The translations under genes and the position numbers were made by a program. 44,349 nt of DNA from Nemertoderma westbladi (taxonomy: Eukaryota; Animalia; Xenacoelomorpha). The notes beneath the pieces are model-generated. The model made no database searches, was not told the origin of the DNA, and saw only the letters and a list, made by a program, of their open reading frames with translations. Location: contig JAUCBJ010007190.1 of NCBI GenBank assembly GCA_032718475.1, forward strand, positions 1 through 44,349, in the 5' to 3' direction. Shown piece after piece: positions 1 to 22,263 of this stretch; the first letter of the stretch is position 1; every line of letters starts with the position of its first letter.

Positions 1-624
1 ATAGCATTTAATCCACACACAACCACTATAAATTGAACCACAATTGCTACCGATACACCCCTTCTGATTACCTCAGTAATTAAGAAAGTTAAGGGGGATT
101 TAACGAATTATTCATCAGTTTTCTCCAAATATAACTAACATCCATTAATATATAACAGCAATTAACAATGATACTAACAACAGTATGTCAGAATGTAGTG
201 CCGCGGTGTGATACGTTGTATTGTGTTGTGGTATGTTGTGATGTTACGTATGGTACGATGTGTTGTGCAGTGAGAGTTGTGTTAATAGATTTGCATTCTT
301 ACGACTCTCTTAGGCCACTGATGTTAGGGCAAAAGTCAGAAAATCAGAATGTCCGAATGAATGAATTCTGAATGAATGAATTCTCAGAATTTGCTGTATT
401 GCGTAATTTCTTATAGGCCACTCTACACAGGGGAAGGGAGATCGCTCTGATTGGCCGAAATATATATCAACAAAGCAGATTCCTCACACAAAGGAACAGC
501 TGGTAGATTTTGTCATCCCAACTCTGAGTTTTTTGACAGACACGTAGTTGTACAAATTATAAGCCCTTTAGAGTATTCAGCACATTGCGCAAAATTACTT
601 ATTTTGTCCACAAAAGCTTTTACA
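1..624 (-). mobile_element. 3' LTR (cut by window edge) of an older, diverged BEL/Pao relative
   Basis: Colinear diverged similarity to 1572-2254 (atagcatt..accactata..caattgcta..ctccaaatataac; gctctgattgg; aaaagc-tttaca). Followed by the same PPT-like ccgctccc at 625-632. Confidence 0.75.
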
Positions 625-693
625 CCGCTCCCAGAAAATGGGATTTAAGTCTATAAAATATATATAAAATCACAGTTTCTAATATAAAAATAC

Positions 694-1010
694 TTTTATG
701 GAGTTTCTTAAGACTTGTGAGAGTCCTTTTCTCTTTAGGGCGAGCCACTTTACTAGGAGGGCTATAACTCCTGGGGGAAGGGTGCAATACAATTGCATCG
801 GAAGGGTTAGGATTGCAGTCGGTGTATCCGCCAGTCGAGGTCCCTGGTTGATCGATATCGATATCGGTGGATCGGGATTGGACAACCTTTAGGGCTCGTT
901 TCAGGACGGCAGTACGTACTGGTCCTTGATTGGTTGTCTGTACGACAGCGGTAGGTTGACCGTATGTACCTCGGTTTAATCGCCTTTTCTAATTCGCGTT
1001 CATTGGCTTT
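694..1010 (-). pseudogene. C-terminal remnant of the accessory ORF of the older BEL element
   Basis: Manual translation ANERELEKAIKPR/(frameshift)GQPTAVVQTTNQGPVRTAVLKRALKVVQSRSTDIDIDQPGTSTGGYTDCNPNPSDAIVLHPSPRSYSPPSKVARPKEKRTLTSLKKLHK aligns to ORF 2333..2665. Confidence 0.75.
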
Positions 1011-1057
1011 GTATTCATATGGTCGTCTATGAACTTCTTGTAACTCGGAGTGTGTGT

Positions 1058-1080: not shown

Positions 1081-1972
1081 TGTTCGCGCTTTTAGACCTT
1101 TAGCAGTTTAACCTGCCAATTTTAGGTGTCTTCTAGGTTATAAATCGACTTTAACCTATAAGTATTTGATACACATAGAGTTACATTTGCCGAAGCCAGC
1201 CTATGCGCGATCATTCACCCACGGTTAAGGGAGACTGGATTCGGATGCTCTGAGCTTATTGCGGTGTAGACCTACTGTACTATTCGATTGATCGTTAATA
1301 TATAATCTCTGACAAATATTATTCACTTTCGGGAAATATTAACAGTTCCTTTAGGACGTGGCGCTCTAAGTATATAAACAGAGTTATGACTTACACTAAA
1401 CACAACGGGATGGCTAATGATTTTCGTATAAAGCGCATTCTTTAGGAAATGCTTTGTTATCTGTCACACTCATGCACACTACCGCACACTGCTGCACTCT
1501 GATCTGTCGACCTTCACTAAATTTGATCATATATAAGGAGAACAGCAACCGACACATGTAGGGTCTATGAAATAGCATTCAATTCACTCCAAAACCACTA
1601 TAATGTAAGTCACAATTGCTATATGTAACCGGTCTCTCTAACCTTCAGTATATCAAGAAGATTGGGGTTTTATGATTATTTATCGATATTCTCCAAATAT
1701 AACAACATATCCATCAACTTCTAACAATTAATAACCGACAGTAAATAGCAGTAAAATAATGCGGTGAAAGGTACCGTAATGTGATATTATGCGTGACTTG
1801 TATGATAACAGTTATACGTTTCTATAATCAAAGCCGTTCTAATGTTTGGCTAAAGTCTGAAACACAGAATAATTCCAAAGCCGATGTTCTGGGCTCAGGA
1901 AAAAAGGTAAACAAAGACCATAATGCATTGCGCGATTTTCCGCAGGCTTCTGTACAAGATAAAATGAAAATC

Positions 1973-1984
1973 GCTCTGATTGGT
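1973..1984 (-). promoter_or_regulatory. CCAAT (NF-Y type) box in putative U3
   Basis: Minus strand accaatcagagc; conserved in the diverged older LTR (444-455) and present in the 5' LTR (16211-16222). Confidence 0.5.
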
Positions 1985-2092
1985 CGAGTGAGCCGAACAA
2001 AGAAAGCCAAAAGCTCCACATCGACATATCAGCTGATAGATGTCGTCATCTGAACTACAATGTATTAAGAGTATTTTGGCGCATTGGGGCAT

Positions 2093-2210
2093 AAAATGGC
2101 TTGTTATGTCCGCTAAAGTACACATACAGAAAAATGGCTTTTTATGTCCACTAAAACACCTACACAGTAAGAAAACGGCTTTTTATGTCCGCTAAAACAC
2201 CTAAAGAGTA
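2093..2210. repeat. Three ~40-bp tandem repeats in putative U3
   Basis: aaaa(t/c)ggctt(g/t)ttatgtcc(g/a)ctaaa x3. Confidence 0.8.
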
Positions 2211-2254
2211 CTTTGCAGGGAAAATGACTAGCCAGATCCGCAAAAGCCTTTACA

Positions 2255-2262
2255 CCGCTCCC
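2255..2262 (-). other. Short polypurine tract preceding the 3' LTR
   Basis: Minus strand GGGAGCGG immediately before TGTAAAGG; identical at 625-632. Confidence 0.6.
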
Positions 2263-2332
2263 AGAAAATGGGATTTAATTCTATAAAATATAAAAAATCA
2301 CAGTTTCTAAAATATAAAAATACTCTAAACAG

Positions 2333-3883
2333 TTAGTCTTTCTTGCACGGACGGCGTTTACGCAGTTTTTTGAGGCTAGCAAGAGTCCTTTTCTCTTTGG
2401 GGCGAGCCACTTTACTAGGAGGGCTGTAACTCCTGGGTGAAGGGTGCAATACAATTGCATCGGAAGGTTTAGGATTACGGTCGGTGTATCCGCCGGTCGA
2501 GGTACCTGGTTGATCGATATCAACCTCAGTGGAGCGAGGTCGAACGGCCTTTAGAGAGCGTTTCAGGACAGCAGCTCTTACTGGTCCCTGACGAGTCGTC
2601 TGAAAGAGAGCGGTGGGTGGACCATGGGTAGTGAGAAATTTCCTCGGTTTGATGATTCTTTCCAACTCGCGTTCTCGGGCTCTATCGGAATCGATATGCT
2701 TCTCCTCGAGCTGATTTTCCTCCGCTTGTCATTGAAAGCATTCGTCCAAACTCTTGCAGAAAGTAGAGTCGTCCAAGTTCGATATCTTCTTAGAGATTCT
2801 GGATTTCCTGATCGAACTCAGATAAAGCTAATTCATTTACCGCTTGGACTTGCTGCTGCAATTTACGTTTCTCTAAACAATTGTAGGTTCCTTTTCCGAT
2901 CTTTTGACGAATAGTGTCCAACGCGTTTCGTACAACTCTCTCCTCCACCTCGGTGACAGGTTGTATCGGGTTAAACCGGGACGCTGATACGGTTGAATGG
3001 CGATATTAGATGTCCGCATCCCAATCCGGCTAGGTAAGATGGGCGAATATCTAGGGAGCCCACAGCCGGAGTGCCACCGACTAATTGTTCGGGTAACACT
3101 AGATCTTTGAACAGTGAGTACAGTTCGGGAGGATCCGTGATACTATTAGGATCAAGAGTCTGAGGTCTCACTAGGGAGTGAGGAGGTCTGACCGAGTATT
3201 CCGGAACTCTGATCATAGGTTTATTTAAGGATCGTTTGAGTCAAGCGAGCGTAGGTGATACATCGAACAAGTTTCGCTCGAAACTCCCGTAAATATAGCG
3301 AGTAAAACTGTGCTTAGAGCAACGTCTCCGCGGATGTTTATGTCTTTCCGTTTGTTGGTTGGGTCTTGGGCATTCATCGCAATAATACCAAAGACGCACG
3401 TCTTGTAGGGGAAACGCGGGTGATCTTTCTTCAGTTTTATAATGTTTCTCTCAAGAATTCCAAATATACGTTGGAGTCACTGCGTTTATCTGGTTCTTTA
3501 ACGTCTTCTCTTTCAAGTCGATTTCGAATAGAATTTTCGCATTCGATTCTCAGTTTATCGTTCCGACTCCGCTGGGTATGATATTTAAATAGGACCATTT
3601 CCCTTTCGGTGTCGACATCGTCCGTATCGTGTAAATCGATAGGATGACCAGTAGTTAAGAAGTCCATATGCGTACCATTACGATGCGTATAGCGAGCAGT
3701 GAATTTTCGATAGTCCAATTCACGAGGGAGTTGCTCCTGGGACATTGGCGGTTCGATATAACGACCATAGTCCTCCGTAGTAGTTGGACTAGCATCGCCG
3801 CGTATTAAGCTATCAACAAACGCTTGCAACGGTAGAGTATATCGCTCCCTGATACCAAGATCATCTTCTATCAACTCAGTCAT
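2333..3883 (-). pseudogene. Accessory ORF (~500 codons) downstream of pol, now broken by stops and frameshifts; function unknown
   Basis: Same-strand fragments 3437..3883, 2971..3216 and 2333..2665 plus a coiled-coil-like piece (KRKLQQQVQAVNELALSEFDQEIQNL). Ends ~80 bp before the PPT with a basic KKLRKRRPCKK tail. Synonymous bias versus the older copy supports the C-terminal part; joining all pieces into one ORF is inference. Confidence 0.65.
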
Positions 3884-4269
3884 AGCTGCTATATGAGTTT
3901 ATCAATATTATAATTAGTTATAATTAGGCTAGCGGGCGTCGCTGCCTACCCCTCACGGCCCCCGGACAGCGCAAGATCCTCAGCGCCGATGTACCGTCGT
4001 CGCTGTGTTTTTCACCAACGTAGTAGCTACACAACGACAACGATAACCAGCGCGAGTCACTCCACCTTCCGTCCCAAGGGCTAAGATTTACTTCAGGTTC
4101 TTACTGCAGAGGTAGAGCTACTTTCACAACTGCGACTCGCTACTGTAAACACACTTTAGTAGTAACATTCACCTATAAACGCACATATTCCACACAACTG
4201 TCACAAACCGCACACATTCGGGCCATTTGTCCGTTAGTCAAGTGCCTTCCAGAATGCCACGTTATTATT

Positions 4270-5070
4270 ATGTATCCTTGGATACTAGCAGTGTGCTATT
4301 TATTCCTTATGCTATTCAATGGGGCAAGCTTTCTATTGTTCTTTTAACTCGCTTCTAATTCTATCTTGGTTGTTGCTATGGTGACATTATGGAAAGCTAG
4401 CAGTAGAATTAGGTTAATTCTCATGCATACAGATCTGGTATGCTATTTAATAGTAATTCTTTAATTGTCAATATTCCTCTTTATACATGATTTTATGAAT
4501 TTTATCGGCTATTGACTATATATTGGAGATTCTCGCACACTAATATACTTAATAGGGTGAATCTCCGCTCCCATGATCTATTAATTAATGGAATTTTGGG
4601 AATGTTATAAATTGTAATAAAATGACAATTTATCAAATTCATTAAAAAAGATGAATTTGAATTTGATGAATTTATTCCTGTAAATTTTATTATTTATCCT
4701 TAAAACAGACATAATTTTATTCCAGAGCATGTCTGGGGACTAGGATCCTTAATTCTAGGAAATTTGTCCTTTTAAGAGTATCGGTAAGTGCTACGATATC
4801 TTAATAGACTAGAATTTTAAAGGATCTAAAATTTTACAGATTTTAATTTATAGATTTTCTAGAGTTAACTTGTAAGTAGTTACTCTATTGTATCTATTTG
4901 ACAGATTTTATAAATATTAATAGTTAATATTTAAGATGGGCACCGGTTTATTCCAGAACAGGTCTGGGGATGTTAACCATTGATTCTAGAATTTTGTCTT
5001 TCAAGTATATCGGTGGGTGCTGCGATATCTTAATCGACTAGAATTACAGATGGTCAAAGGGTTTAACAGA
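4270..5070 (+). other. Cluster of about ten stem-loops, including a duplicated ~115-nt structured unit (4717-4828, 4948-5068)
   Basis: Inverted repeats read directly, e.g. ctaattcta/tagaattag (4355/4404), gcatac/gtatgc, ggagattc/gaatctcc, taaatattaa/ttaatattta (4911-4933), aattctag/ctagaatt. Confidence 0.6.
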
Positions 5071-5598
5071 TTTATTTTGCATTTTACGCTACTGTTAAAG
5101 GGACATCACGCTACTATATGTATTATTTAATATACGGTATGAGAGCAATATCGCAAGAAGCAATGTCAGTGAGAAGAGGCAAGTCGTTTCCAAGGTCTAC
5201 CCAGAGCTTGGTTTAGCCGAGACACGAGGATCTGAATTTTGCATTCCTAATACTCTACTTACCAATAATACTTGAATATAGTAGGAGCTTTATTGTACTT
5301 TAATAAGTACGGACATTTCATCTTACTGTAGTCACGTATTTATAATGTAATACTGACAGTAAGGAAAGAGAAAATAATTATTTCTCGCCGTCGCACTAAA
5401 TATATAATATAATATAAGTAAGTAAGTAATAAGACTAATATATATTGCACTAATCTACTAGATAATCGCTAAAATAACATTCTACTAAATAAAATTAAAG
5501 AAAACGATTATAATAAAATTACATAATAATACATACATAAATATAAAAATAATAAAAATATATGAAATAATATAGTCACACACTCACTCCAGACGCTG

Positions 5599-6720
5599 TC
5601 ACGTTAGGGAGTCCCTGGATGTTGGTTGGATTAGGGAGGTGGTCGTGGGAAGAGTATCTTGCCTTCCATAGTTTCCGGAGAGTTCTCTGTCTCTTTCCAG
5701 TAAACATAAACGACCAACTGGGCAATTGAGCTGCTGCGTCTCGAAGACAATTCCCGGTTTCTTAAAGTTACGTCGCATGACGATGAGTTCTACCGATCAC
5801 ACCAAACCATCTCATGAGTCTCGATGATACGACCTGTCTGCCACCGCTTACGTGGAAGATCTGACTCCACAATAAGGACCATGTCTCCTGCGCTGACGTT
5901 TTCTTGCTGCGCAAACCACTTAGTTCGAAGTTGTAGCGTAGGCAGATAATGTTTTTTGAAATGGTGAGCGAAACGACGGGATAACAACTGCATAAGTTGC
6001 CAAGTTTGCCTGCAGTATTCGTCTCCGTCCGTGCTTTCCGATCGTGGGAGCATGGCTACAGGTTTCTTCAGTAGGAAGTGCACGGGTGTTAGCGTTTCCA
6101 GGGAATCGGGACTAGATGAGACTGGCATAAGCGGTCTCTCGTTGAGATAGGCGGCGATTTCCTCCATTAACGTCCGCAAAAGTTCGTCGGTGAGATACGC
6201 GCGGCACGGCACTATAAAGTGAAATGCGGTCTTCACGCTCCTGATTAATCTCTCCCAACTTCCTCCCCACCAAGGGGCGTCGGCGGCGTTGAAGGTCCAG
6301 CTAGACGCTGTTATCTTTAGCTGATCGTCCACCTGTCTTTGGTTCCAATCTTTGACGTAAGCCTTGATTTCATTGTTGGCGCCAATGAAGTTCGTTCCCT
6401 TATCAGATCTAATCGTATTACTGTATGATAATTATTGTATGATAAAGCTTACTGTGAACATCTACAATCATCTTGATTTGTATTTCAAGATTTCTAATGA
6501 GTATGAGAAACTTAGTGTCAAAGGATAATGGAGCATTAGTTAGTCTTCCTCCAACGCGTATTAACCCATCTATCATTGTGCTAGAGAAACGATCCCTTAA
6601 GCGCATCTGTGGATTTCTTAACAACAGGAAATACTTATCGGAATCCTCATAGCATTGTAAGAGTCTCAGTATCTGCTTATTGGTTTCTTCATGCTCTTGG
6701 TAACTGATCCTCTCCTTCAG
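5599..6720 (-). pseudogene. Integrase region, frameshifted and internally deleted
   Basis: GLIRVGGRL..NAPL, then a jump to IRSDKGTNFIGA, WTFNAADAPWWGGSWERLIRSVK, LNERPL, LTPVHFL and C-terminal PVGRLCLLE. The CxxC of the zinc-binding domain and the first catalytic Asp are not seen. Confidence 0.85.
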
Positions 6721-6723
6721 AAA

Positions 6724-8202
6724 TTAGTCTGATATCTTGTATTTGGGAAGATCTTTAACAACATGGACCTGAGCAGACGTCAGTGGAGCGGTATCACTAG
6801 CGGTCTTTGTCCTGGAGTAGTGATGATGAAAACATCGCTTTAAATATGTAATGGCCTTACAGAGCCGATTCCAGGAACTATAGTGATGTATCGCTCTCTG
6901 CAGGAGAGGTGAGAGTCCTTGCGAGACGTCTGGTGTTCCAGATTTCCAATCTCTCTCTCTGATTTCCACAACAGACTTATTTGTGGCTGGGGTTTTTGGA
7001 TCCAAAGCATCGTCTCCGGAAGTGTGTAGTACAGACAGATCTATTACGGGTTTAAATAACTTCGATTTACTCGCCCGGGTTTTAGGTTTGACTTTCTCCG
7101 CTCCCTTGGCTTGTCTAATCTCCGCCGTAATAAGATGAGGAGTCCATTCATCCTCTTCCTTGCTTAGGAAATCGGGTCCACCTAACCAGTCTGGAGTATC
7201 TATCAGTTCTTGTGGAGTTGCTCCCCTGGAGGCAATGTCGGCTGGATTATTCGTCCCGGGGCAATGTCTCCATTGATCTATCTTCGTGCGACTAAGTATA
7301 ATGGCTACTCTGTTGGTAACGAAGACGCTGAACTGACAGACTTCATTGGTTATATACTCCAACACGAGTAAAGCATCGGTCCAATAGACAGTTTTCTCCA
7401 GTGGATAGTCGATCTGTTCTGTTACATTCCGGCCGATGGCTGTAGCGTATAGAGCCGCTTTTAACTCTGCTCGAGGAACTTTCAACTTGTTGTTTATCAA
7501 AGCCTTAGAGGTAACCAAGGTGACCTTGATTCCATCCGGAGTTTCAACTCTCAGGTAGGCTACTATACCTATTCCCATATCGCTGGCGTCTCCAAACACA
7601 TGGAGTTGATAGGAATACGTAGGGAGAACATGACCAAAATATGAACGGGAAATTATAAAGTTCTCGATGGATGGTAGAGAATCTTCCCATTTCATCCACT
7701 TCTTTAATAGTTCTCCCTTAAGTGGATCGTCCCATGAGTGGTTTTCAAGCCACATTTGTTGTACTAAACTCCGAGCAATCAATATAACTGGGCTAATAAA
7801 TCCCAATGGATCGAAATAAGTGCTCAGGATACTTAGACAAATCCGTTTAGTCCGAACTGGATTATCTCGCTGTTTTAGCTGGAAAAACAGGATATCTCTC
7901 TCTGTGTCCCATTTCAAACCAAGTGTCTTGGTTTCTGGAAGATCGTCCTTGATTAGGTCTAGATCTTTAACTCCTCGGTCTTCTACCGGGATCGATTCCA
8001 GAAACTCACGGGAGTTGCTGGTGAATTTAGTTAATCGAAATCCACCTCTTTTCAAGCACTCTACCGTTCCTTTGGCGACATCAATGGCTTCTTCCACCGA
8101 TGGGAGGGACTTTAAATTGTCGTCCATGTATATATCCAGTTTGATGTTGTCGATAACCTCTTTGGAGAAGGCGTCCTGGTTGTCATCAGCAGTGGTACGC
8201 AC
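6724..8202 (-). pseudogene. pol: pol segment: RT C-terminal half and RNase H
   Basis: YMDD, GGFRLTKF, FDPLG, HVFGDAS, VPRAELKAA, YWTDA, WRHCPGTNNPADIASRG; out of frame with the upstream RT half near 8210. Confidence 0.9.
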
Positions 8203-11200
8203 TACTGAGCAGGCGTAGTAGGGCTCGAGATGATCCCAAAAGCCTGGATGGTCATCCAGTACTCCACCGGTTTCTGGTTGAAGTCTCCTTCAGGCCACCA
8301 CAGAAATCGTAGGCTGTCTCGATCCCTATCCAGCGCCTTAACTTGTAAGAACATGCCTTCTATATCGGAGGCGAAAGCGATTGAATATTGTCGTAATCTT
8401 AAGAGTATTCCCAACAAGGATTGGAGTAAGTTGGGTCCTGGCAACAACTCGGAGTTAAGGGATTGGCCCATGTAGAGGGCGGAGCCGTCAAATACTACCC
8501 GGACTTCGTTGGGTTTACCGGGTTTGGGAATGTAATGATGTGTTAAATAGTACGTTCTCTCAGTTATGGGTGTTCCTTCCGGTACTCGCTCCGCATATCC
8601 CTTCTCAATGAATTTCTTCAGCTGGGTCTTGTACATCTCCTTAGCTGAAGCATTTGCCGTAAGGCGTCGATGTAGTTGTACAATTCTCTTCTCCGCCAAG
8701 GGTCGGTTGTTTATAAAATTGGGTTCTCGCTGTCGGAAAGGCAGACCAATCTCATATCTACCTTGATCTTTAAGAAAACGTGTAGTTGTTTCCTGTATCT
8801 GCTTGGCTCTTTCTTCTTCTACCGATAGGGCCTTATCATAGGAATTGGGCTCTACAGCCTCTTGAGTAAAGAATCGTACGGCGTGTTCATCACAAGTCTT
8901 CGCGTTGTAGCGATCTATCACTTCATTCAGTTCGTCGTTGTAATCGACTTGTCCCGCTGGATAAATGAGGTGACATAGGTTCACTTGGTTTTGCCAAGTT
9001 TCATTTTCCGTAAGGAGGTCGATGGTATTCTCCTCGTCGAATAGTTGGTGGATATCGTCATTATCTGAGGAGTATGGTGTTCCCTCAGGTGGGTCGTCTC
9101 CCTCACTGGTCTCATCTTCCCATTCACTCACCTGGTAGACCCGTTCTTTGGGTAGCCTTTCCATGAGAGTTATACGGGAAGGTCCAGTAAAATACCAACC
9201 TACTCTAGTTCTTCCCGCATAAGTTTGTAGTGGTTGCGGTTGAGCAGGCCGTTTCTCCAATGTCTCAAGCGCCTCATGCGCATTTTGGCCGATGAGTATT
9301 TGTACTCCAGGGTAGTCTGTGTTGAATCTAGGTATCTCATGTTGCTGGGTGAAATCGTCCTCATCCCAGTTATAAGGTTCCACTTGGCTGGTAGCGAAGT
9401 TCTTTATCGCTACCATTTTTACTGACCTTATGCTGTGTTCTCCTAGTTCATCCTGGGGGGTGGACAACGCGCCTACATAGTAATCTGTAGTTACTGTAGA
9501 TTTCCAAACCTGCATAATTCCTGACATGTTCAACTTAGTTCGGAACTTGGGTTGTCCAGCAAAGATGTCTTTGGCTAGTTCTTTGTCGATGAATGTTCCT
9601 GTGCTGCCGGAGTCAAGGAGGGCGTTCACTATATAGCTCTTTTCTGACCCGTGGACTCTTAACTGCACTACGGGAAATTCTCGGATTCCTACGTTGGAAG
9701 TTGGTGCTTTCCAAGATGGTTGTCGGTCAGGAGTAGTTAGGGGGAGCTCACTATCTGTTTCCTTCTCATACGTAAGTGCTCGATACACTGCGGTATTTAT
9801 TAGGTAACAGGATTCGTTTTCGTCGGAGAATTCATCCGTATAGAATCCTTCCATCTCAGAACTTTGGTCAGTGTCGTTCACATCACTGAATTGAACATGT
9901 AGTTCGGACTCACTTACCTGACTCGGGTTGTTTCTTTCGAATTCAGTGTGCAACAAGATATGATGTTTCGCGCCGCACTTAGCACATCTTGCGTCGGAGT
10001 AACAGTTTCGCCGTTGGTGTCCTTGTCTGAGGCAATTATAACACAACCGCTTATTCCACATGACTTCACGTCTATCTATTAGGGATTTCTTTATGAATTC
10101 ATCACACACACTTAAATGGTGGGGCCCGTCGCACAGCACACATTTTGGTTTGATGTTACTTACCTTACCTTGGGTAACGTTGTGCACACTCGTTCTTTCC
10201 TCGGGCTTTCTTCCATGAATTCTCTTAGGAGACGTAGGAGGAGTTTTTCTTACCTGTTCTCTCCTGTCATTGGTTCGAGACTTAAATTTACTTACGTCTT
10301 TAGGCGCTTTGTTGATATAGTAAGATCTTTCAGTGTCTTTCAGGCTGTCCTCCTCTTGAGAAGCCTGGCTTTCGCCGTCGTCTGTATAACACACTGGTGT
10401 TATCTTTCTCCTAGAAGCGGGTTTCTCACTTACCTTATTTTCTGGTGTCTTCTCTCGGGACTGCTTTAGGAGCTGTAATTTTACCTCTCCATCTAAGAAT
10501 GACATGAGATCAGCCATGGTACGGTCTCGTCGTTGTTGTTCCATCATATATAACACTTTCTTATCCCAGCGTGTACCTACTCCACCCTTTGGCAAAGTAG
10601 ATGCTACGGCTCCAATAACCATAGAACTCTGATATTCATGAGACTTACCTAGCCAATCTAATTGTCTACAGATCTCCTGAATCTCATCGGAAAACTCTAT
10701 AATCCCGCTGCTAATGAACTTTCGGGGCGCTACCAATTTTGCATACAAATACCTAGCTATGTTATTCCTATTACCATACCTGATGTTTAAGGTATTCCAA
10801 ACTTGGCTTAATCCATCTGGATGTCCAATAAACTTTAACGCCATTAACTTGGGAGATCCTTCCAAGCACTCGATGAGGAATCTAAGTTTCTCTCCATTAG
10901 ATAGCACAGAGTTCTGTATGTTATCTTTGTAATATTCATTAAAAGGTAACCATTTCATCTCATCTCCATTGAACTTGACGATCTCTCCCACCTTTACCGC
11001 TTGACGGGCTTCGGTTCTAGCCATTTGACACGTAAAACTTTCTTGGGCCATCGTATTATTTAATATCGAGTTATCGGTATATAAATTTCTCGGATTATTA
11101 TCAGGTCTATATGGAATATCATTGTCAACAGGTCTATAATTACCCTTAATAGGGTTTACTATAGGAGTTTCTACTTCACTAGCAGTATAGATGCGTGTAG

Positions 11201-13415
11201 GCTCCACACCTTGCGCATGAAATACTTCAGACCTAACAGGTTGACACATTGTTACAGGGGGTGTTGGTATACCCTTTTGTAGATTTACTAACTTATCGCG
11301 TTCTAACGCGATACTCTGCTGCACTTCCTGTAATTCCAACTTACTTTCTCTTACTGTTCCCTTTAACTGTTGAACAGTCCCCTCCAACTCTCGGACCTGT
11401 TGGGAGGAGCGAGCCTGATTCTCCTCCATCTTCCCGAGGAGAATATCCATCCCCCGCCGTCGCTCATCCACCCACTCAACCGCCGAAGCGGGAGCCGCCA
11501 ACATAGTAGCGGGTAGACGAGGGATGACGGGCGGCAAATTGTTAATGTCTCGCTCAGCGTCCAGGACCGGAGTTGACTGAGGAACTGTCCCACCGGATAC
11601 AGGTAGTTTAGTACTGTGCAAAGGGAATTTATAGTTCGGTTCTGGAAGTACAGTGGTCTCTATTACAGAGGGAGTGGCTTCGAGAACAGGCCTAATTATT
11701 TCAGGTTCATCCACTATAGTAGGGAGCCTTTCTACTCTAATAATTTGGTCTGTGGGTTCTGTACTACCTAAGTCTGTGCTAGCTAGTTGCCTTCTCACAG
11801 CTGGGGGCAAATTAGGCAATTTCTGATGGTGGGGCGTTCTTCTACGCCTACTTAGACGAGATCTATTTCCTCCGCCTTCAGGATCTGTTGTATCGCCTTC
11901 ATCAGATGATGTAAATCCCTGTCTTTTGGGAATAGATCGACTTATCATCTGCCACTGACTAGCTGTTCTTTGTTTATCTATGTAGTCTTGCTTCTCTTGA
12001 AGATTTTCCAACTCTAGTTGGGTGGTCTCTTCAGACGCCCTCCGTTCTGCTTCTGCCACTGCCTCTGCCGCTTTTCTTTCCGCTTCTGCCGCTGCTACCT
12101 TTCTTTCCGCTTCTGCCTCTTTTCTTTCCGCTTCTGCGGCTGCCATTGCCGCTTTCCTTTCCACTTCTGCCACTGCCATTGCCGCTTTCCTTTCCGCTTC
12201 TGCCGCTTTTCTTTCAGCCTCTGCCGCTGCTGCTATCTTTCTGTCTTCTATACGTTTTTTCTTTACTTGTTCTTCCTGAACCCTAGCGATGCGGCTACTT
12301 TCATCAAATTTAGCTTGGTTCGCAGCTAACATTTCCGCATCTATTGCGTCCAGCACAAACTTGGCTCCTTCACTATTAGGACGAAGTCCAGCCAGCCTTC
12401 TCCTCAACTCTTCGTCACCTAGAAATCGTTGATAGTCTGACAGATAGATGTCAATAGCGTCCTTCTTCTGCGGTTTCTCTGCTGTCGCTTCGCTTTCCAC
12501 TTGAGAAAAGGTAGCGTCTGTTGATTCTCCGTGGGTTGAGCGCTCAGCCAGCTGAAATTTCCACTGGGCCGTTCCTTGATCCTTGAGACTCACCCGCTGG
12601 AACCAAGTCTTTACGGCAAGTTGCAATGACGTGTCTTGTCTTCTTTTCGAAGCTTCCTCAAAGGCCGATAGGATTAGTCTGATTCTTAGAATTCTTTCTC
12701 GAACTTGATAAAGCAGTTCTCCCTGCTCTTGAGGTCCTTGGGGTTGTTGAAACAGTTGTTCCTCTAATCGCTCCAAAGAGCTGAAGAATCCCTGTACATA
12801 TCCTGCTGCCGACCTCTTCCACACAGCTGGATCACTAGTGTCTTTTGTCACTCCCATCCTGTGTAAGTCCTCCCAGGCAGCTTCCAATAAGTTAAACGGG
12901 AGTCCGGGTCCGGGGAAGTTCCATTGCGTCTCGACAATAGACTTCAGTTCCTCCCTTGTGTATCCCGCATAACTGTCCTTGGTCGATCGCTTACTTCTCG
13001 CCCAATCGATTTGGTGTTCCTCCACCGCAATCAATACCCTAGTGAGTACGGCTGCAGGAAGAATGAGAAGGGGATCCGAATAAACCGCATCTGCCATCTT
13101 TGCTCCGCGCTCGGGTGTCAGCTCTACAGTATCTGAACTACTGGAGCTATCGGGCCGCTGAGAAATAAGTTCTCGGCTCGGGTGTTGTTGCTGTTTAACA
13201 GCTGCTTCTTGGTCCCGCTTGACTTGAGCCCGAGTGCCTATGATAGACCTACGGTGTTTGACTAGCCTAGGGTCTGATACTACTACTGGAGGGATGATCT
13301 TTCTTACAGTAGGAGGTGAGTTGAACTTTGGTCTCAAACGTTCCACACTCCTATCTGGATCACAGATGGTTGTATCTAGGAGACTGTCTGACAGGTTTTG
13401 CTTTGTGTCAGACAT
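8202..13415 (-). CDS. gag-pol: Gag-protease-RT(N) polyprotein portion, 1737 aa
   Basis: BEL Gag core (KFNGDEMKWLPF..EKLRFLIECLEG); knuckles CVLCDGPHHLSVC, CYNCLRQGHQRRNC, CAKCGAKHHILLH; protease ALLDSGS; RT VVFDGS, DIEGMFLQV, FGIISSP. Confidence 0.92.
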   Translation of the reverse strand: MSDTKQNLSDSLLDTTICDPDRSVERLRPKFNSPPTVRKIIPPVVVSDPRLVKHRRSIIGTRAQVKRDQEAAVKQQQHPSRELISQRPDSSSSSDTVELTPERGAKMADAVYSDPLLILPAAVLTRVLIAVEEHQIDWARSKRSTKDSYAGYTREELKSIVETQWNFPGPGLPFNLLEAAWEDLHRMGVTKDTSDPAVWKRSAAGYVQGFFSSLERLEEQLFQQPQGPQEQGELLYQVRERILRIRLILSAFEEASKRRQDTSLQLAVKTWFQRVSLKDQGTAQWKFQLAERSTHGESTDATFSQVESEATAEKPQKKDAIDIYLSDYQRFLGDEELRRRLAGLRPNSEGAKFVLDAIDAEMLAANQAKFDESSRIARVQEEQVKKKRIEDRKIAAAAEAERKAAEAERKAAMAVAEVERKAAMAAAEAERKEAEAERKVAAAEAERKAAEAVAEAERRASEETTQLELENLQEKQDYIDKQRTASQWQMISRSIPKRQGFTSSDEGDTTDPEGGGNRSRLSRRRRTPHHQKLPNLPPAVRRQLASTDLGSTEPTDQIIRVERLPTIVDEPEIIRPVLEATPSVIETTVLPEPNYKFPLHSTKLPVSGGTVPQSTPVLDAERDINNLPPVIPRLPATMLAAPASAVEWVDERRRGMDILLGKMEENQARSSQQVRELEGTVQQLKGTVRESKLELQEVQQSIALERDKLVNLQKGIPTPPVTMCQPVRSEVFHAQGVEPTRIYTASEVETPIVNPIKGNYRPVDNDIPYRPDNNPRNLYTDNSILNNTMAQESFTCQMARTEARQAVKVGEIVKFNGDEMKWLPFNEYYKDNIQNSVLSNGEKLRFLIECLEGSPKLMALKFIGHPDGLSQVWNTLNIRYGNRNNIARYLYAKLVAPRKFISSGIIEFSDEIQEICRQLDWLGKSHEYQSSMVIGAVASTLPKGGVGTRWDKKVLYMMEQQRRDRTMADLMSFLDGEVKLQLLKQSREKTPENKVSEKPASRRKITPVCYTDDGESQASQEEDSLKDTERSYYINKAPKDVSKFKSRTNDRREQVRKTPPTSPKRIHGRKPEERTSVHNVTQGKVSNIKPKCVLCDGPHHLSVCDEFIKKSLIDRREVMWNKRLCYNCLRQGHQRRNCYSDARCAKCGAKHHILLHTEFERNNPSQVSESELHVQFSDVNDTDQSSEMEGFYTDEFSDENESCYLINTAVYRALTYEKETDSELPLTTPDRQPSWKAPTSNVGIREFPVVQLRVHGSEKSYIVNALLDSGSTGTFIDKELAKDIFAGQPKFRTKLNMSGIMQVWKSTVTTDYYVGALSTPQDELGEHSIRSVKMVAIKNFATSQVEPYNWDEDDFTQQHEIPRFNTDYPGVQILIGQNAHEALETLEKRPAQPQPLQTYAGRTRVGWYFTGPSRITLMERLPKERVYQVSEWEDETSEGDDPPEGTPYSSDNDDIHQLFDEENTIDLLTENETWQNQVNLCHLIYPAGQVDYNDELNEVIDRYNAKTCDEHAVRFFTQEAVEPNSYDKALSVEEERAKQIQETTTRFLKDQGRYEIGLPFRQREPNFINNRPLAEKRIVQLHRRLTANASAKEMYKTQLKKFIEKGYAERVPEGTPITERTYYLTHHYIPKPGKPNEVRVVFDGSALYMGQSLNSELLPGPNLLQSLLGILLRLRQYSIAFASDIEGMFLQVKALDRDRDSLRFLWWPEGDFNQKPVEYWMTIQAFGIISSPTTPAQ
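12045..12235 (-). repeat. Coding tandem repeat (A)EAERKAA in Gag N-terminus
   Basis: About 7 imperfect copies of EAERKA visible in DNA and protein. Confidence 0.85.
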
Positions 13416-13547
13416 GTTTGTTTGTACAGTTGAATGCCCACTGCTATAATTACAGTTAAAGCAAGTTTAGTAATTCAGTATCACTGTTAGCCTAGTAATT
13501 AATTACCGATATAGTTACTCTATGTAACATGATATATATACAATATA

Positions 13548-13800
13548 TTAGAATACCGGTATACACTTATAGTATATATAAGTATTATTACGGATCGAAT
13601 ATTATGGTTCGTCACAGAATACCGGTATATAATATCAGCGCAAATATATAGGTATATAATAAGCCTAACGCCTAACAGCTTACACTTATAGTATATATAA
13701 GTATAATTGTAGACTAGAATTAATTACAGAATACCGGTATATAATTTCAGCTTAAATATATAGAAATAAATATAATAAGCCTATCGTAAATACCGGTACG
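13548..13800. repeat. Short direct repeats in the ~1.9 kb 5' leader
   Basis: agaataccggtata x3, tacacttatagtatatataagta x2, tataataagccta x2. Confidence 0.7.
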
Positions 13801-15315
13801 TCAATTATTTTAGAATAATTGAATTTCTGAATTTTAGGGTTACTTAGTTACTTTACTTTACTTTATTACCGTTATTTAAGCAGTAGTCCAACTGATATTA
13901 AGACCTAATTGTTGTATGACAGGCCTACTATTTTATAAATCGGTTTGAGTTGATTTATAATATATATACCCGTTTAATGGGTTTTGTTACAATATTTGAA
14001 ATAAATATTATTATTTCTGGGAAGGAGTCACTACACAGTGAAGTGCTACTTGTTGGACACTAAAACAAATAATTCTAATTTACTAAGTTACTTATTACTA
14101 CAAATTACGTACAATTAAGGGGTGAGATTACAATCTCTAAATAAACACAAAAAATTACACGTACGAATTTTTAGGGTTAATTTTACAGGGAATCTACAAA
14201 CCAGCGTAACAAGGAGTTAGAATATCTGGTTATTACAAACGGACAAGATACTACGGTATTTGAAAATAATAAAGCAGTAGTAAATATATTGCATTGTCTA
14301 GATAAGAAAATACCACCATCTGACGACTTATAGCCGTAGCGCTATAAGTACTACGTTATGTACCCGGAGTGTTCCTACCTAGAAGTTAATTACCGCAGCC
14401 TACTATAGCTAACGTGCCTATTAACCACTTTACAACACAAATATACTGCCTACACACTAATTACCTTCGGAAAGCACTGTACACTAAACCCTAAATTAGG
14501 TACAAGTACTTATACAACAAATAACCAGCAGTTAAAAATACTTGTACAGCTAAAAGAACCACGGTATCTGCCAGAGTGACCAGAGCATAAAATCACCAGT
14601 CTTTACCTACACCAAACAGTCCTGATGTAGTACCGGGGTTAATTTAACTATAACGGTATGTATAACACGCACAATTACTGTAGGAATAAACTTGGGGTTG
14701 TGATTGTTGCGAATAATCGCATATACTCTGAATAATAAATATTACGCTACCCGTACAGACTACACAAACAAAATACAGACCAAACGCTGGCAGACTACTA
14801 TCAAGCCTAAATAAACTACAGTATATGCAGACTCCGAAATGGTTAGTTAGTATGCGTTCTAACCGAGTAGTACGACTTATTCTTTCGGGGGGGGGGGGGG
14901 GGGGGGATTTACCTTACAGCACTGGATGCCCCCACGTTCCTAACTAGTACTTTATCGGACATACACTCTACACACACTGCAATCTCTTCAGACCTAACAA
15001 CAGTCAGACAACAATCCAGCCTACAAATTATTTATACAATCTGAGCAGGCTTACACGCCTTCTGCTCAATATTAACTTACATATAAATAAAACTGACAGA
15101 AATAAGTAAAATCCCAATAAAAAACCAGGGCTGCAGTCCCTGATTAAATATCAAGACCTACCGGTATATAATTATCAAAATCGAATAATACTGATGTACC
15201 TGTACTGCTGTAAGTACCGGTTCGGGTGGTTAGGTAGTTAGGCCTACTGGTTACCGGTCGACCAGTACTTTTGCCTTTATTGCCTACGTTGCAATAAAGA
15301 AAGAATAACTGTTAT

Positions 15316-16222
15316 TGTTCGCGCTTTTAGACCTTTAGCAGTTTAACCTGCCAATTTTAGGTGTCTTCTAGGTTATAAATCGACTTTAGCCTATAACAAG
15401 TATTTGATACACATAGAGTTACATTAGCCGAAGCCAGCCTATGCGCGATCATTCACCCACGGTTAAGGGAGACTGGATTCGGATGCTCTGACCTTATTGC
15501 GGTGTAGACTTACTGTACTATTCGATTGATCGTTAATATATAATCTCTGACAAATATTATTCACTTTCGGGAAATATTAACAGTTCCTTTAGGACGTGGC
15601 GCTCTAAGTATATAAACAGAGTTATGACTTACACTAAACACAACGGGATGGCTAATGATTTTCGTATAAAGCGCATTCTTTAGGAAATGCGTTGTTATCT
15701 GTCACACTCATGCACACTACCGCACACTGCTGCACTCTGATCTGCCGACCTTCACTAAATTTGATCATATATAAGGAGAACAGCAACCGACACATGTAGG
15801 GTCTATGAAATAGCATTCAATTCACTCCAAAACCACTATAATGTAAGTCACAATTGCTATATGTAACCGGTCTCTCTAACCTTCAGTATATCAAGAAGAT
15901 TGGGGTTTTATGATTATTTATCGATATTCTCCAAATATAACAATATATCCATCAACTTCTAACAATTAATAACCGACAGTAAATAGCAGTAAAATAATGC
16001 GGTGAAAGGTACCGTAATGTGATATTATGCGTGACTTGTATGATAACAGTTATACGTTTCTATAATCAAAGCCGTTCTAATGTTTGGCTAAAGTCTGAAA
16101 CACAGAATAATTCCAAAGCCGATGTTCTGGGCTCAGGAAAAAAGGTAAACAAAGACCATAATGCATTGCGCTATTTTTCGCAGGCTTCTGTACAAGATAA
16201 AATGAAAATCGCTCTGATTGGT
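15316..16222 (-). repeat. 5' LTR, missing its outer ~270 bp
   Basis: About 99% identical to 1081-1984; identity stops abruptly after gctctgattggt. Confidence 0.9.
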
Positions 16223-16740
16223 TGTTCGCGCTTTCAGACCTTTGGCGTTAAAAACGAATTATTAGTATGTACATTAGTTAAAAGATAATTATCAGATAAA
16301 AACCAGTAAAAGGCAAAGTGAAAATATTAAGAAATATGCAAAGATTGAGTTGACATCATTATAAGATTAATTTAATAAAGATAAATAAACTATTAAAGAT
16401 TAATAGTTTAAAACGATCGAGTTTTAAAGGTTGGGTTAATACATATTGGGGTAGTTATAGTTAAAAACGAATATCAGTACATTACGTAAAAGATAATTAT
16501 CAGATAAAAACCAGAAAAGGGCAAAGTGAGAGTATTTAAAAATATGCAAAGATTGAGTTGACACAATCGAGTTTTAAAGGTCGGGTTAATACATATTCGT
16601 CATCTTGAAGGTGACGTATTGTGATAGTTAGTTAAAAAACGAATAATTATCAGTACGTTAGTTAAAAAAAAGATAATTATCAGGAATTAAAACAGAAAAG
16701 TGCAAAGTGAACTTATTTAAAAATATGCAAAGATTGAGTA
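16223..16740. repeat. Variant LTR terminus followed by three diverged tandem units
   Basis: tgttcgcgctttcagacctttggc versus LTR start tgttcgcgcttttagacctttagc; then gttaaaaacgaat..aagataattatcag..gcaaagtga..aatatgcaaagattgagt at ~16247, 16460 and 16631. Confidence 0.7.
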
Positions 16741-17586
16741 AAAGATAAGATGAGGTAGATAAAAAGTTTGTGTAGTGCTTGTGTATGACTCAGTCAGTCA
16801 GTGACTGTACAGCTGTAGGCTAAGTAAATACTGAATTATGCTTGATGCCAGCGCCAGGCAGCCAGGATGCTGTACTGTCTGACTGCTGGACTGTGTGATG
16901 CTTAACCACCTGTCTGCCTGTACAAGTGTACTATGCTGCTATAGCCTATGTACAGATGTATGCTGGTATGTATGTATAGGTCAGTAGGCAGGCCCGTATC
17001 GTGCGGGGGGGCTTTGGGGGCACTGCCCCCTCAGAGAAGTCCCACTGCCCCCCCCCAGACATGTATTGTTCACTCGTCTTGTTCAGAATTAACTAATAAT
17101 AATATTGTTGGTAATCAATATTATTGGATTCACATACTCCTGCCCATTGACCTGACCTGACTCCCCACCATTCCATTTGGTCCAATTCTATAACTACATG
17201 ACATTAATATACCCACCTACTGTCAGACTGTACCTGTAATTACTAAACATACTCGAAAGCGCTCGGTTCTCTCATTGGCTACCAGGGTGGAGGGGTTGTT
17301 TGTTGTTGACCCATTGTCTATTTGCTTGTAGTTTGGGAGCCAGCTTGCAGCTAAAAGGCTTGGCGCTGAGGGTTGCAGGGTTGCTTGCGCTGGTATCCAT
17401 AGCTATAATTTGTTGTAACTTAACCTTAACCATATTATACCTGAAGTGGGTCCTTCGCGCAGCACGTGATATAAACTTATGTAAGTGTAATCTTGAAAGA
17501 AAAATAAGCAAAATCTAAGCAGATGTGATGCCCTTGATCACTTTATACCAGCCTAGAGGCAGGATTGAAAACTGCAGTCGATTTAA

Positions 17587-18390
17587 CCCTTGTGCTGTCT
17601 TTGAGTTTGAGGTCATTTTTGACCCATCATAGATTTAAACTTACTCAATTTTATCACACATTGATATTCCAACTCAGTTCGCAAACCAGATGTCATCAAA
17701 TGTCAAATGGGCCCAAACTTAGATAGATACCAACATTTTGAATTGGGGATGACATGAAATATTCCAAAATGCACATGGCCAGTTCCCGCCCTTGGCGCAA
17801 GTGAGTCATATTCCCCATTTTTGTGATGATCAACTTCTAGTATTCCTACTGCATTGATATTATGCTCATTTAGAACCGCAATGACCGATTTAGTTGTTGT
17901 AGACACCTTCAAAACAAGCATAGAGCTGTAGAGCGAATAGTGTTTGTCAAGGTATTTGTCAATATCGCATCAAAGCGCTAATTTTGACTTGTGCCGGACT
18001 TCACATTATCTGCAATATCTGCAAAACTATTCGCTCTATTGTTGTTTTGAAGGTGTCTACACCAACTAAATCTGTCATTGCGGTTCTATTGAGCATAAAT
18101 ATAAATGCAGTAGGAATAATAGAAGTTGATCATCACAAAAATGGGGAATATGACTCACTTGCGCCAAGGGCGGGAACTGGCCATCTGCCTGTGGGAATAT
18201 TTCCTGTCATCCCCAAATGAAAATTTTGGTTCCGGTATCTATCGAAGTTTGGGGTCATTTTATGACATCTGATGTGCAAACTGAGTTTAAATTCGACAAT
18301 TCAACAAGTTTTTTTGGACCACCCCAACCCTCTCATTTACCTGAGGTCAAAATTGACCTCAAAGGAATCATCTGTTTGAGAAACGAAGGG
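17587..18390. mobile_element. piggyBac-like MITE with a long internal inverted repeat
   Basis: TTAA|CCCTT...AAGGG|TTAA; subterminal gaggtca.....tgacc palindromes; ~260-bp inverted arms at ~17673-17930 and ~18030-18287. Confidence 0.7.
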
Positions 18391-21700: not shown

Positions 21701-21995
21701 TAGTTTGACGAGGAAGTGCTACAGGTATGCACTTTATCGAGTTCCGCACAAGGAGGGCCACTCCACCCCCAACCCGGTCGTGTCTGTCATGCCGGAAGAC
21801 CCGGAAACGTTTGCTGCCAGACAACATCGCGTCAGAAATAGAATCATTGGCCCAGGTTTCCGTTATCGCGATCACATCATACGGGGTAGTGGATAGAAAC
21901 TCATCCAAGTCCGACAATTTGTTTTTCAGTGACCTGGCATTAAAGCAGCAACACTTGATAAACGCGTGCTGGTTTGATGAGCAACGATGATCACC
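18795..21995 (-). mobile_element. CR1-group LINE, 5'-truncated at about the start of ORF2
   Basis: APE-RT ORF, ~350-bp 3' UTR, (TAA)n tail at 18795-18819, no clear TSD; inserted just inside the right TIR of the hAT element. Confidence 0.9.
19170..21917 (-). CDS. LINE ORF2: APE endonuclease and reverse transcriptase, uninterrupted
   Basis: ITETW, GGGV, YRPP, GDFN, LDL (APE); NYRPISLT, QHGF, DFSKAFDSV, GTPQGSVIGP, YADD (RT). The frame stays open upstream through FNARSLKNK to the truncation point. Confidence 0.95.
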   Translation of the reverse strand: MSDLDEFLSTTPYDVIAITETWANDSISDAMLSGSKRFRVFRHDRHDRVGGGVALLVRNSIKCIPVALPRQTTDIEAVAIDLIDGSSRLICAYRPPPVPSVPDTTTGLCEALNILCDTNKPCVITGDFNLPLFDWTDVSHPDNDIYNNFFSFVLESGLSQVQYEPTRGDNVLDLIFTTDDHFVSSVSTAAPFSTSEHATVSFDIIGSPQCDSSDTSAPRGFYDFANGDYTGFKSFMRSIKWEEEEFASCRTVDDFFLAFSKVMKSGINTYIPYKEFCNDSNQKKYPHYVKILQKAKKRLWRRRHSEGGMAAYKCVAAQASRAAHRADCEREIRILSSGNTNAIFRYLKKKNSNRSDIGPLKYKGETVIDDETKATIFSSVFSENFTPDNNVPLNFNRKVPYNVNLSSVDFNPVNVLTFLHKLAPKHSSTPDGFPAILFSKLACTIAAPLSVIFRVSFESHALPSVWLTAYIIPVFKKGDSSDPYNYRPISLTCITCKIMEMVIKDALINYLLTNKLITRAQHGFLKRKSTCTQLLDCLSDWCKLIDKRKNVDVIYVDFSKAFDSVVHSKLLCKLSGYGVCGSLLDWFKAFLSNRSQQVLVGNMFSQVCAVISGTPQGSVIGPLLFMLFINDLPDLLLPVSAKLYADDVKIYSSSDQRNYIVTALRQLETWASECQLNLAAHKCFAVYIGATNPKHIYFLNSAVLKSESSCKDLGLLIAPDLKFNIYCKAQVAKAFRVINMLFRNIVSTNKSALLTAYKSMVRPLLEYCTPVWSPFTKRFINLVERVQRYFCRRLFLRCNLSPATYIDRLHFLNLQPLEVRRHVFDLKMVYRIKHGLVDLESAQYFSEPPRSGLRGHNQKLFVPRCRLQIYKHYFSNRVVPLWNSLPSETVGAKSISIFSHLLLDFDFMPFCNFDI

Positions 21996-22263
21996 ATACG
22001 GGCCTGTCAGAAGGTAGTCAGATAGTCAGATAGTGTGAATTATTGGACAGATCAGTTAGTAGGCCTACAGTCTCACAGTAGTCTGGTAGTAGTAGTACGG
22101 CATGCGGCTGTACTGCTGCACGGTCAGACGGTAGCGTAGGTACCGGTGCTGCGGTGTAACAGAGAATTTTCACTCCCCATGCAGCCATGTACCATGTAAA
22201 ATCACTCCCCAGTTAAAATTCCCTAGTCAGCTCTGCAGCTAGTGTACCGGTACCGGTATTGTA

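What the first reader, a model, noticed from the sequence alone, without database searches (positions are those of the whole stretch)
2333..3883. BEL/Pao element carries a non-env accessory gene showing purifying selection
Seen: a same-strand coding-like region lies in the slot between integrase and the PPT. Over 55 codons (DIDQPG...KKLxK) the young copy and the older copy at ~695-860 differ at 14 codons by manual count; 10 are synonymous (e.g. ggt/ggg, acc/act, tca/tcc, tac/tat, aaa/aag) and 4 are replacements. Known: most BEL/Pao elements have a single gag-pol ORF, and described extras are mainly env-like glycoproteins. Inference: this product is hydrophilic with no signal or TM segment, has a coiled-coil-like part and a basic NLS-like tail, so it could be an undescribed nuclear accessory factor (transactivator, RNA export or anti-silencing).
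Basis: partly seen in the sequence, partly recalled or inferred. Interest (0 to 1): 0.78.

Follow-up and report, generated by a model that had tools for sequence, protein, structure and literature searches.

The report
Non-envelope extra gene in BEL/Pao retrotransposon
An abundant animal jumping gene of the BEL/Pao type carries, where an envelope gene would sit, a second gene that evolution has conserved at the protein level and that matched nothing in the databases searched; its predicted product is soluble and likely nuclear, and it likely helps handle the element's own RNA, though this copy is broken and the function is untested.

Summary
Observation confirmed exactly: 14 of 55 codons differ between the two copies, 10 synonymously (dN/dS 0.08; 89 codons 0.175; 1 of 5000 permutations). 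The gene lies on the minus strand (3883-2333), after integrase and a 1.7-kb spacer, and stops 1 nt before the 3' LTR of a 15-kb BEL/Pao element. This copy is broken at five points. Contigs from public runs support one frame across three of them; the first break and one stop are unresolved. Variation among other copies also supports coding in the N-terminal piece (7 of 8 listed polymorphic sites synonymous). The ~510-codon product has no hydrophobic segment, 7 cysteines, a CxxC-x16-CxxH motif, a heptad helix and a basic tail, so it is not env or a FAST-type fusogen. No credible homologue was found; both single-sequence folds failed. The same acceptor-like 8-mer precedes both gag and this gene, hinting at spliced mRNAs. 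Best guess: a nuclear Rev/CERV-like RNA regulator (0.4); function untested. Non-env extra ORFs are known in Gypsy elements; eight literature searches found none for BEL/Pao. The scan had no note on this sequence; it noted unrelated Gypsy accessory genes in another genome.

The parts
1081..2331 (-). 3' LTR, about 1.25 kb, TGTT...AACA ends
   Evidence: 1081-1984 matches 15316-16222 at 895 of 907 columns; inner end inferred from the TGTT start just after the ORF stop, because the 5' LTR is cut short
2337..2344 (-). short purine run, PPT-like, overlapping the last codons of the extra gene
   Evidence: seen in the sequence; function inferred
2333..2728 (-). extra gene, piece 4: disordered Ser/Pro-rich C-terminal part ending in a Lys/Arg-rich tail (2374-2339)
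   Evidence: dN/dS 0.08-0.175 versus the sister copy; basic windows and disorder-type composition
2742..3002 (-). extra gene, piece 3: helical part with heptad pattern (2825-2742); in-frame stop at 2792-2794
   Evidence: coding-model score 13.8 bits versus -4.0 and -10.2 in other frames; 6 of 8 a/d positions hydrophobic (no null test)
2974..3450 (-). extra gene, piece 2: CxxC-x16-CxxH motif (3381-3310) then Pro-rich part; in-frame stop at 3241-3243
   Evidence: 159 codons read through with X; motif in 8 of 5000 shuffles, pattern chosen after seeing it; the stop site differs in over 99% of depth in all 4 runs
3437..3883 (-). extra gene, piece 1: ATG at 3883, 148 open codons, charged helix near its end
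   Evidence: 7 of 8 listed polymorphic sites synonymous, p 0.004; coding-model best frame
3886..3893 (-). splice-acceptor-like word (TATAGCAG) just before the ATG, with branch-point-like CTAAT words upstream
   Evidence: the 8-mer occurs only here and before gag on the element's sense strand; 99 of 3000 shuffles share an equally long word; splicing not shown
3884..5600 (-). non-coding spacer between integrase and the extra gene, AT-rich (29% GC over 4351-5570)
   Evidence: longest open stretch 65 codons in three sense frames
5600..13415 (-). gag-pol of BEL/Pao type, broken into several pieces
   Evidence: DUF1759, Peptidase_A17, DUF5641 above Pfam cut-offs; three Cys-His boxes, LLDSG, YMDD, DAS
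13441..13448 (-). same acceptor-like word before the gag ATG, at the end of a 1.9-kb 5' leader
15316..16222 (-). 5' LTR, lacking the part that corresponds to 1985-2331
1..1050 (-). fragment of a sister lineage: tail of the same extra gene plus LTR, with its own deletions
   Evidence: 83.5% over 267 nt in the gene, 72% in an LTR part

Best explanation
This BEL/Pao family carries a second, selected gene after pol whose predicted ~510-residue soluble product is likely made from a spliced mRNA, likely enters the nucleus, and likely binds the element's own RNA to get unspliced copies exported or stabilised, working like HIV Rev or CERV of Cer1. Shown: position, strand, purifying selection at both ends of the gene, lack of membrane features, the motifs, no credible homologue. 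Inferred: one continuous ORF in intact copies, splicing, nuclear import through the basic tail, zinc binding, oligomerisation through the heptad helix, and the RNA-handling role.
For: Selection. Frame path supported by a coding model trained on gag-pol and a LINE ORF in all 7 segments. Contig pieces keep frame across the break at 2971-3005 (2 of 3 single pieces), the break near 2729-2750 (1 of 1) and both together (1 of 1 record); the stop at 3241-3243 is not shared by over 99% of depth in 4 of 4 runs. Highest 19-residue hydropathy 0.93, 7 Cys, 1 sequon in 511 codons. Basic tail, Arg-rich zinc-like motif, heptad helix, SP motifs in a conserved disordered block. Same acceptor-like 8-mer before gag and this gene, each after a long AT-rich spacer: if both are spliced, full-length RNA retains introns and needs an export route (inference). 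Precedent: CERV is made from a spliced Cer1 mRNA, has a Cys loop and an oligomerising domain, and is required for export (PMC10309623, abstract and section 15 read).
Against: No expression, splice junction, location or binding was observed. Basic tails, zinc motifs and NES-like strings are common to many nuclear proteins and do not pick RNA over DNA. The shared 8-mer is only modestly beyond chance (99 of 3000) and no donor was located. Outside piece 1 only 4 of 10 listed polymorphic sites are synonymous. The zinc-motif segment is the weakest: 0.2 versus -1.8 bits, and a variant with three single-base gaps across it makes up about 40% of depth in one run. The first break is unresolved (1 of 2 spanning pieces keeps frame; a third piece seems to have no gap there). 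Position differs from CERV's layout as far as I read, and no sequence likeness to Rev-like proteins was found.
Confidence: 0.4

Rival explanations
1. The gene is real and nuclear but acts on DNA or chromatin: a transactivator of the LTR or an anti-silencing factor, using the zinc motif to bind DNA and the acidic N-terminal part to activate.
For: Zinc-like motif, basic tail, acidic piece 1 (31 D+E versus 21 K+R); very high abundance of the family in 4 runs; plant Retand extra ORFs are proposed DNA binders (PMC11963269, abstract read).
Against: No DNA-binding family matched in Pfam (best Arm-DNA-bind_2 E 0.17-0.2, below cut-off); does not explain the acceptor-like word before gag.
Confidence: 0.25
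2. The region holds two genes, or one gene with a programmed frameshift: a 148-codon ORF ending at 3437 and a downstream ~370-codon frame reached by frameshifting or a second splice.
For: Piece 1 has its own ATG and stop; at the first break 1 of 2 spanning contig pieces does not keep frame and a third seems gap-free there; no indel row at this break among 12 of 33 shown.
Against: The downstream frame has no Met before the zinc motif; one contig piece keeps frame with a single gap; short contigs cannot show gaps, and the break at 2971-3005, which is supported, has no indel row either.
Confidence: 0.15
3. A cytoplasmic helper (inclusion-body or particle-assembly scaffold, translation helper or RNA-silencing suppressor, in the manner of caulimovirus P6, recalled) or a host or other-element gene captured long ago and now unrecognisable.
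For: Size, 3' position and modular low-complexity make-up fit; rotifer Gypsy-type elements captured varied ORF3 genes (PMC5408684, abstract read).
Against: No Pfam, PHROG or PDB match; no DEDD, GDSL or kinase motifs; a strong NLS-like tail argues for the nucleus.
Confidence: 0.15
4. A decayed env or FAST-type fusogen, or a non-coding region whose conservation comes from cis-elements near the PPT.
For: It sits in the env slot; dS in the tail (0.40) is lower than just upstream (0.71), and the adjoining LTR start is 92% identical, so some nucleotide-level constraint exists.
Against: Third-position periodicity cannot come from a cis-element; no signal or TM segment, 7 Cys, 1 sequon; the overlapping hydrophobic frame 2550-2281 has dN/dS 2.6.
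Confidence: 0.05

Closest known systems
BEL/Pao LTR retrotransposons (Belpaoviridae, Semotivirus)
   Same: Gag with three Cys-His boxes, PR-RT-RH-IN order, DUF1759/Peptidase_A17/DUF5641, LTRs, PPT-like run.
   Different: At least 15.1 kb versus 4.2-10 kb, and a third gene that is not env; the ICTV profile lists only gag, pol and env (PMC8742986, whole text read).
env-bearing BEL/Pao elements (Roo F-type; Tas and Cer7; mosquito Chuviridae gB-like)
   Same: Extra same-strand gene between integrase and the 3' LTR (PMC13524379 and PMC554778, passages read).
   Different: No signal peptide, TM segment, Cys-rich ectodomain or glycosylation pattern.
CERV of C. elegans Cer1 (Gypsy) and HIV Rev
   Same: Element-encoded non-structural protein with no known homologue; Cys-rich loop, oligomerising part, proline-directed Ser sites, spliced mRNA (for CERV read in PMC10309623; here predicted).
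   Different: Different superfamily; no sequence likeness detected; splicing, location and export are untested here.
Non-env ORF3 of bdelloid LTR elements and aORFs of plant Tat/Retand elements
   Same: Conserved extra ORF between pol and 3' LTR (PMC5408684 abstract; PMC7264820 part 1 of 3; PMC11963269 abstract).
   Different: Those are Gypsy-type; the rotifer ones are DEDDy exonuclease or GDSL esterase, the Retand ones antisense with TRP28; none of these matched.
sORF2/FAST-like fusogens of MDG1-group elements
   Same: Non-env accessory ORF of an LTR element (PMC11952523, abstract read).
   Different: Those are short transmembrane proteins; this is long and has no TM segment.

Membership tests
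BEL/Pao (Belpaoviridae) | Gag with DUF1759 and triple Cys-His box | tested here: met
   DUF1759 E 5e-11; three boxes
BEL/Pao (Belpaoviridae) | Pol order PR-RT-RH-IN with Pao-type domains | tested here: met
   LLDSG, YMDD, DAS in order; Peptidase_A17 E 6e-37, DUF5641 E 6e-15
BEL/Pao (Belpaoviridae) | Direct terminal repeats (0.2-1.2 kb) | tested here: met
   98.7% over 907 nt; full 3' LTR about 1.25 kb; 5' copy cut short; no target-site duplication seen
BEL/Pao (Belpaoviridae) | PBS complementary to tRNA-Arg or tRNA-Gly | tested here: inconclusive
   No TGG start directly after the 5' LTR by eye; no host tRNA available to compare (no genome)
BEL/Pao (Belpaoviridae) | RT phylogeny within BEL/Pao clades | not tested
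   No relatives retrieved; clade unassigned
env glycoprotein (F-type or gB-type) | Signal peptide and C-terminal TM segment | tested here: not met
   Highest 19-residue Kyte-Doolittle mean 0.46, 0.93, -0.05, 0.05 in the four pieces; no dedicated predictor available
env glycoprotein (F-type or gB-type) | Cys-rich glycosylated ectodomain, profile match | tested here: not met
   7 Cys, 1 sequon in 511 codons; no Pfam match
sORF2/FAST-like fusogen | Short protein with one TM segment under selection | tested here: not met
   Selected frame has no TM; the overlapping hydrophobic frame has dN/dS 2.6
Captured enzyme ORF3 (DEDDy, GDSL, dUTPase, kinase) | Catalytic motifs or profile match | tested here: not met
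   No motifs, no Pfam match; PDB best E 1.2 to an STE20 kinase N-lobe without HRD/DFG
Rev/CERV-like export factor (works-like) | Made from a spliced mRNA | tested here: inconclusive
   Acceptor-like word only; no run on record as RNA
Rev/CERV-like export factor (works-like) | Nuclear location, Arg-rich RNA-binding or Cys loop, oligomerisation, export signal | tested here: inconclusive
   Motif-level only: basic tail, CxxC-x16-CxxH, heptad helix, 4 NES-like strings from a permissive pattern
Rev/CERV-like export factor (works-like) | Required for export of unspliced element RNA | not testable with these tools
   Needs cell experiments

The most novel reading that the evidence does not exclude
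This is a 'complex' BEL/Pao element: both gag-pol and a new ~510-residue nuclear protein family come from spliced RNAs sharing one acceptor signal, and the protein is an independently evolved Rev-like switch between spliced and packageable full-length RNA, the first such regulator in this superfamily.
Probability: 0.25. Interest if true: 0.8.

Novelty: new variant of a known kind. Interest (0 to 1): 0.52.

Why it matters
BEL/Pao elements are described with gag, pol and at most env, and their replication is called poorly understood (PMC8742986). A conserved non-env gene in a very abundant family gives a concrete handle on how these elements regulate their RNA or evade silencing, and adds a protein family with no recognisable relative. 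Extra non-env ORFs as a concept are already known from Gypsy elements, which limits the surprise.

Tried and rejected
Homologue searches, all blank or artefact: piece 1 among 260-2000 aa proteins (0 of 191 candidates); piece 4 among 72-230 aa (0 of 39); piece 2 among 280-2000 aa (0 of 149); piece 1 against 1.84 billion representatives gave 3 hits, all sums of 2-12-bit matches over tandem repeats, rejected. Piece 3 was not searched in the large protein sets. ESM Atlas: no usable hit for 3 pieces. Pfam, PHROG, PDB: nothing significant; kinase N-lobe likeness E 1.2 rejected. Viral contigs: pieces 4 and 3 and integrase none; piece 2 reported 3 of 9 stretches passing but 0 loci, unusable. Metagenome contigs: none for piece 1 or RT/RH. 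AlphaFold on single sequences failed (mean pLDDT 38 and 33), so no fold search was run. No RNA holder listed: no evidence on expression. No host genome held, so no multi-copy dN/dS. Rfam and tRNA scans blank. Hairpin after the 5' LTR not significant (z -0.53). My first frame guess for 3476-3225 was dropped: four gap-free or frame-neutral contig pieces cross 3225-3243 and the other frame scores better. CpG decay as the source of the bias rejected (4 of 17). One search was translated in the wrong frame and repeated.

Full report
Setting. The region lies in a minus-strand LTR element spanning 1081-16222. Gag-pol (13415 to about 5600) is in several pieces and carries DUF1759, Peptidase_A17 and DUF5641 above Pfam cut-offs, three Cys-His boxes, LLDSG, YMDD and DAS: a BEL/Pao element. 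The terminal repeats match at 895 of 907 columns. The 3' LTR most likely runs 1081-2331; the 5' copy lacks its first ~350 nt. After integrase come 1.7 kb of non-coding, mostly AT-rich DNA, then a 46% GC block from an ATG at 3883 to a stop at 2333, one base from the LTR. A fragment of a sister lineage at 1-1050 holds the tail of the same gene joined to the same kind of LTR, so gene and LTR have travelled together in two lineages; this argues against a recent nested insertion.

Over 89 ungapped codons it is 0.175. The alternative sense frames give 1.5-3.4. A permutation keeping substitution types reached the observed protein identity in 1 of 5000 trials. The LTR parts of the two copies differ by JC 0.555, close to dS 0.54, while dN is 0.094. 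CpG decay does not explain it (4 of 17 differences). This rests on one pair of sequences.

Is it one gene? In this copy the frame changes at 3437-3453, 2971-3005 and about 2729-2750, and there are in-frame stops at 3241-3243 and 2792-2794. A three-periodic model trained on gag-pol and a LINE ORF picks the same path in all 7 segments tested, weakly in 3450-3245 (0.2 versus -1.8 bits). No host genome was held, so I laid contigs from 4 public runs of 4 studies (one may be the window's own source). All 30 bins are covered in all four: the family is abundant and diverse. The tool showed 40 of 541 variant sites, 12 of 33 indels and 32 of 23,316 pieces, so all counts below are from small, tool-chosen subsets. 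The stop site at 3241-3243 differs in over 99% of depth in 4 of 4 runs. Of pieces crossing a break with at least 31 nt each side: 2 of 3 keep frame at 2971-3005; 1 of 1 near 2729-2750; one record keeps frame across both; 4 of 6 that cross only the 3241 stop are frame-neutral; at 3437-3453, 1 of 2 keeps frame, and a third piece with short overhang seems to have its gaps elsewhere. The stop at 2792-2794 is not among the sites shown. So a continuous frame of about 370 codons from 3450 to the end is reasonably supported; its joining to the first 148 codons is open. Of 31 listed sites inside the gene, 3 at breaks were left out; of the 18 polymorphic ones 11 are synonymous (expected at most 0.35; p 0.02), 7 of 8 in piece 1 (p 0.004) but only 4 of 10 elsewhere; of 10 near-fixed differences (private to this copy's lineage) 3 are synonymous, as expected for decay. 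Piece 1 is thus coding on independent evidence.

Anatomy. 511 codons in four pieces, 7 Cys, 1 N-glycosylation sequon, highest 19-residue hydropathy 0.93: no signal or TM segment. Features: acidic piece 1 with a charged helix; CxxC-x16-CxxH with an Arg/His-rich loop at 3381-3310 (8 of 5000 shuffles, pattern chosen after the fact); a heptad helix at 2825-2742; a disordered Ser/Pro block that is 51 of 55 identical between lineages; a Lys/Arg tail. Against the zinc motif: weakest coding score, and a variant with three single-base gaps across it is common in one run. The word TATAGCAG occurs only twice on the element's sense strand, 3 nt before this ATG and 26 nt before the gag ATG, each time after branch-point-like words and a long AT-rich spacer; 99 of 3000 shuffles share an equally long word. 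That these are splice acceptors is inference; no run on record as RNA was listed.

Relatives. None credible: (word-indexed, weak when blank), 25 with 27-29 (3 repeat-sum artefacts), Atlas 15, 16, 36, Pfam 12, 35, PHROG 65, PDB 66-69, contig collections 33, 37, 42, 45, 75, 76. These collections are poor in animal transposon genes (even RT/RH and integrase queries returned no locus), so the blank shows little about absence in animals. Single-sequence folds failed.

Mechanism. Most likely (0.4) a nuclear RNA regulator in the manner of Rev or CERV: a spliced subgenomic mRNA yields a protein that enters the nucleus, oligomerises, binds element RNA and lets intron-retaining RNA out. The argument is the shared acceptor-like signal plus the motif set; every functional step is inferred. 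Rivals: DNA-level transactivator or anti-silencer (0.25), two genes or programmed frameshift (0.15), cytoplasmic helper or unrecognisable captured gene (0.15), env remnant or non-coding (0.05).

Comparison with the literature. The ICTV profile (PMC8742986, whole text) gives gag, pol, sometimes env, 4.2-10 kb. PMC3118150 (passages), PMC554778 (passages) and PMC13524379 (passages) mention only env-type extras for BEL/Pao. PMC2774666 (passages) lists accessory genes for Retroviridae, Caulimoviridae and some Gypsy clades. Non-env extras in Gypsy: PMC5408684 (abstract), PMC7264820 (part 1 of 3), PMC11963269 (abstract), PMC11952523 (abstract), PMC10309623 (abstract and section 15). PMC3597677 (passages) names one BEL element with a captured gene fragment; PMC8556966 (passages) gave nothing on extra ORFs. 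Eight searches found no non-env accessory gene in BEL/Pao. Limits: I recall, unverified, that a 1999 paper on C. elegans Cer elements proposed an accessory ORF in Cer7; it was not held. Repbase reports, subscription journals and supplements were not seen and could hold similar ORFs.

Verdict. A real, selected, non-env gene in an unusually long BEL/Pao element; broken in this copy; no known relative; function unproven. New variant of a known kind; interest 0.52.

Noticed in passing
window 16223-16980, 1058-1080 and 16989-17010: The 5' LTR is cut at a CCAAT-like box and abuts a second LTR-like end with nearly the same first 20 nt; the same ~22-nt word (start of a MITE-like repeat) flanks the whole block on both sides. 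No target-site duplication seen; nested insertion or recombination.
   Followed up: partly
window 13415-10900 (minus): Gag has an ~830-residue extension before DUF1759, with an Ala/Glu/Arg repeat at 12041-12264; unusually long.
   Followed up: no
window 15240-15315 (minus): No obvious tRNA primer site right after the 5' LTR; a 10-bp stem lies there but folding is not beyond shuffles.
   Followed up: partly
window 2798-3069 and 3647-3856: Abundant contigs in two or three runs skip 270 nt (a multiple of three) or 208 nt of the extra gene: internally deleted derivative copies exist as DNA.
   Followed up: no
window 2281-2550 (minus): An overlapping 89-codon open frame with a hydrophobic end; dN/dS 2.6, so a by-product.
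   Followed up: yes
window 19170-22025 (minus): Open 951-codon endonuclease-RT ORF of a LINE, apparently intact.
   Followed up: no
window 25700-26900 and 31000-33200: Two arrays of a 32-bp unit in opposite orientation, about 5.5 kb apart, with shared non-repeat flanks: foldback-like structure.
   Followed up: no
window 17671-18287: Self-complementary ~620-nt element, MITE-like.
   Followed up: no
window 38256-44349: A 425-codon Ser/Pro-rich plus-strand frame running into a ~40-bp GC-rich satellite of about 5 kb.
   Followed up: no
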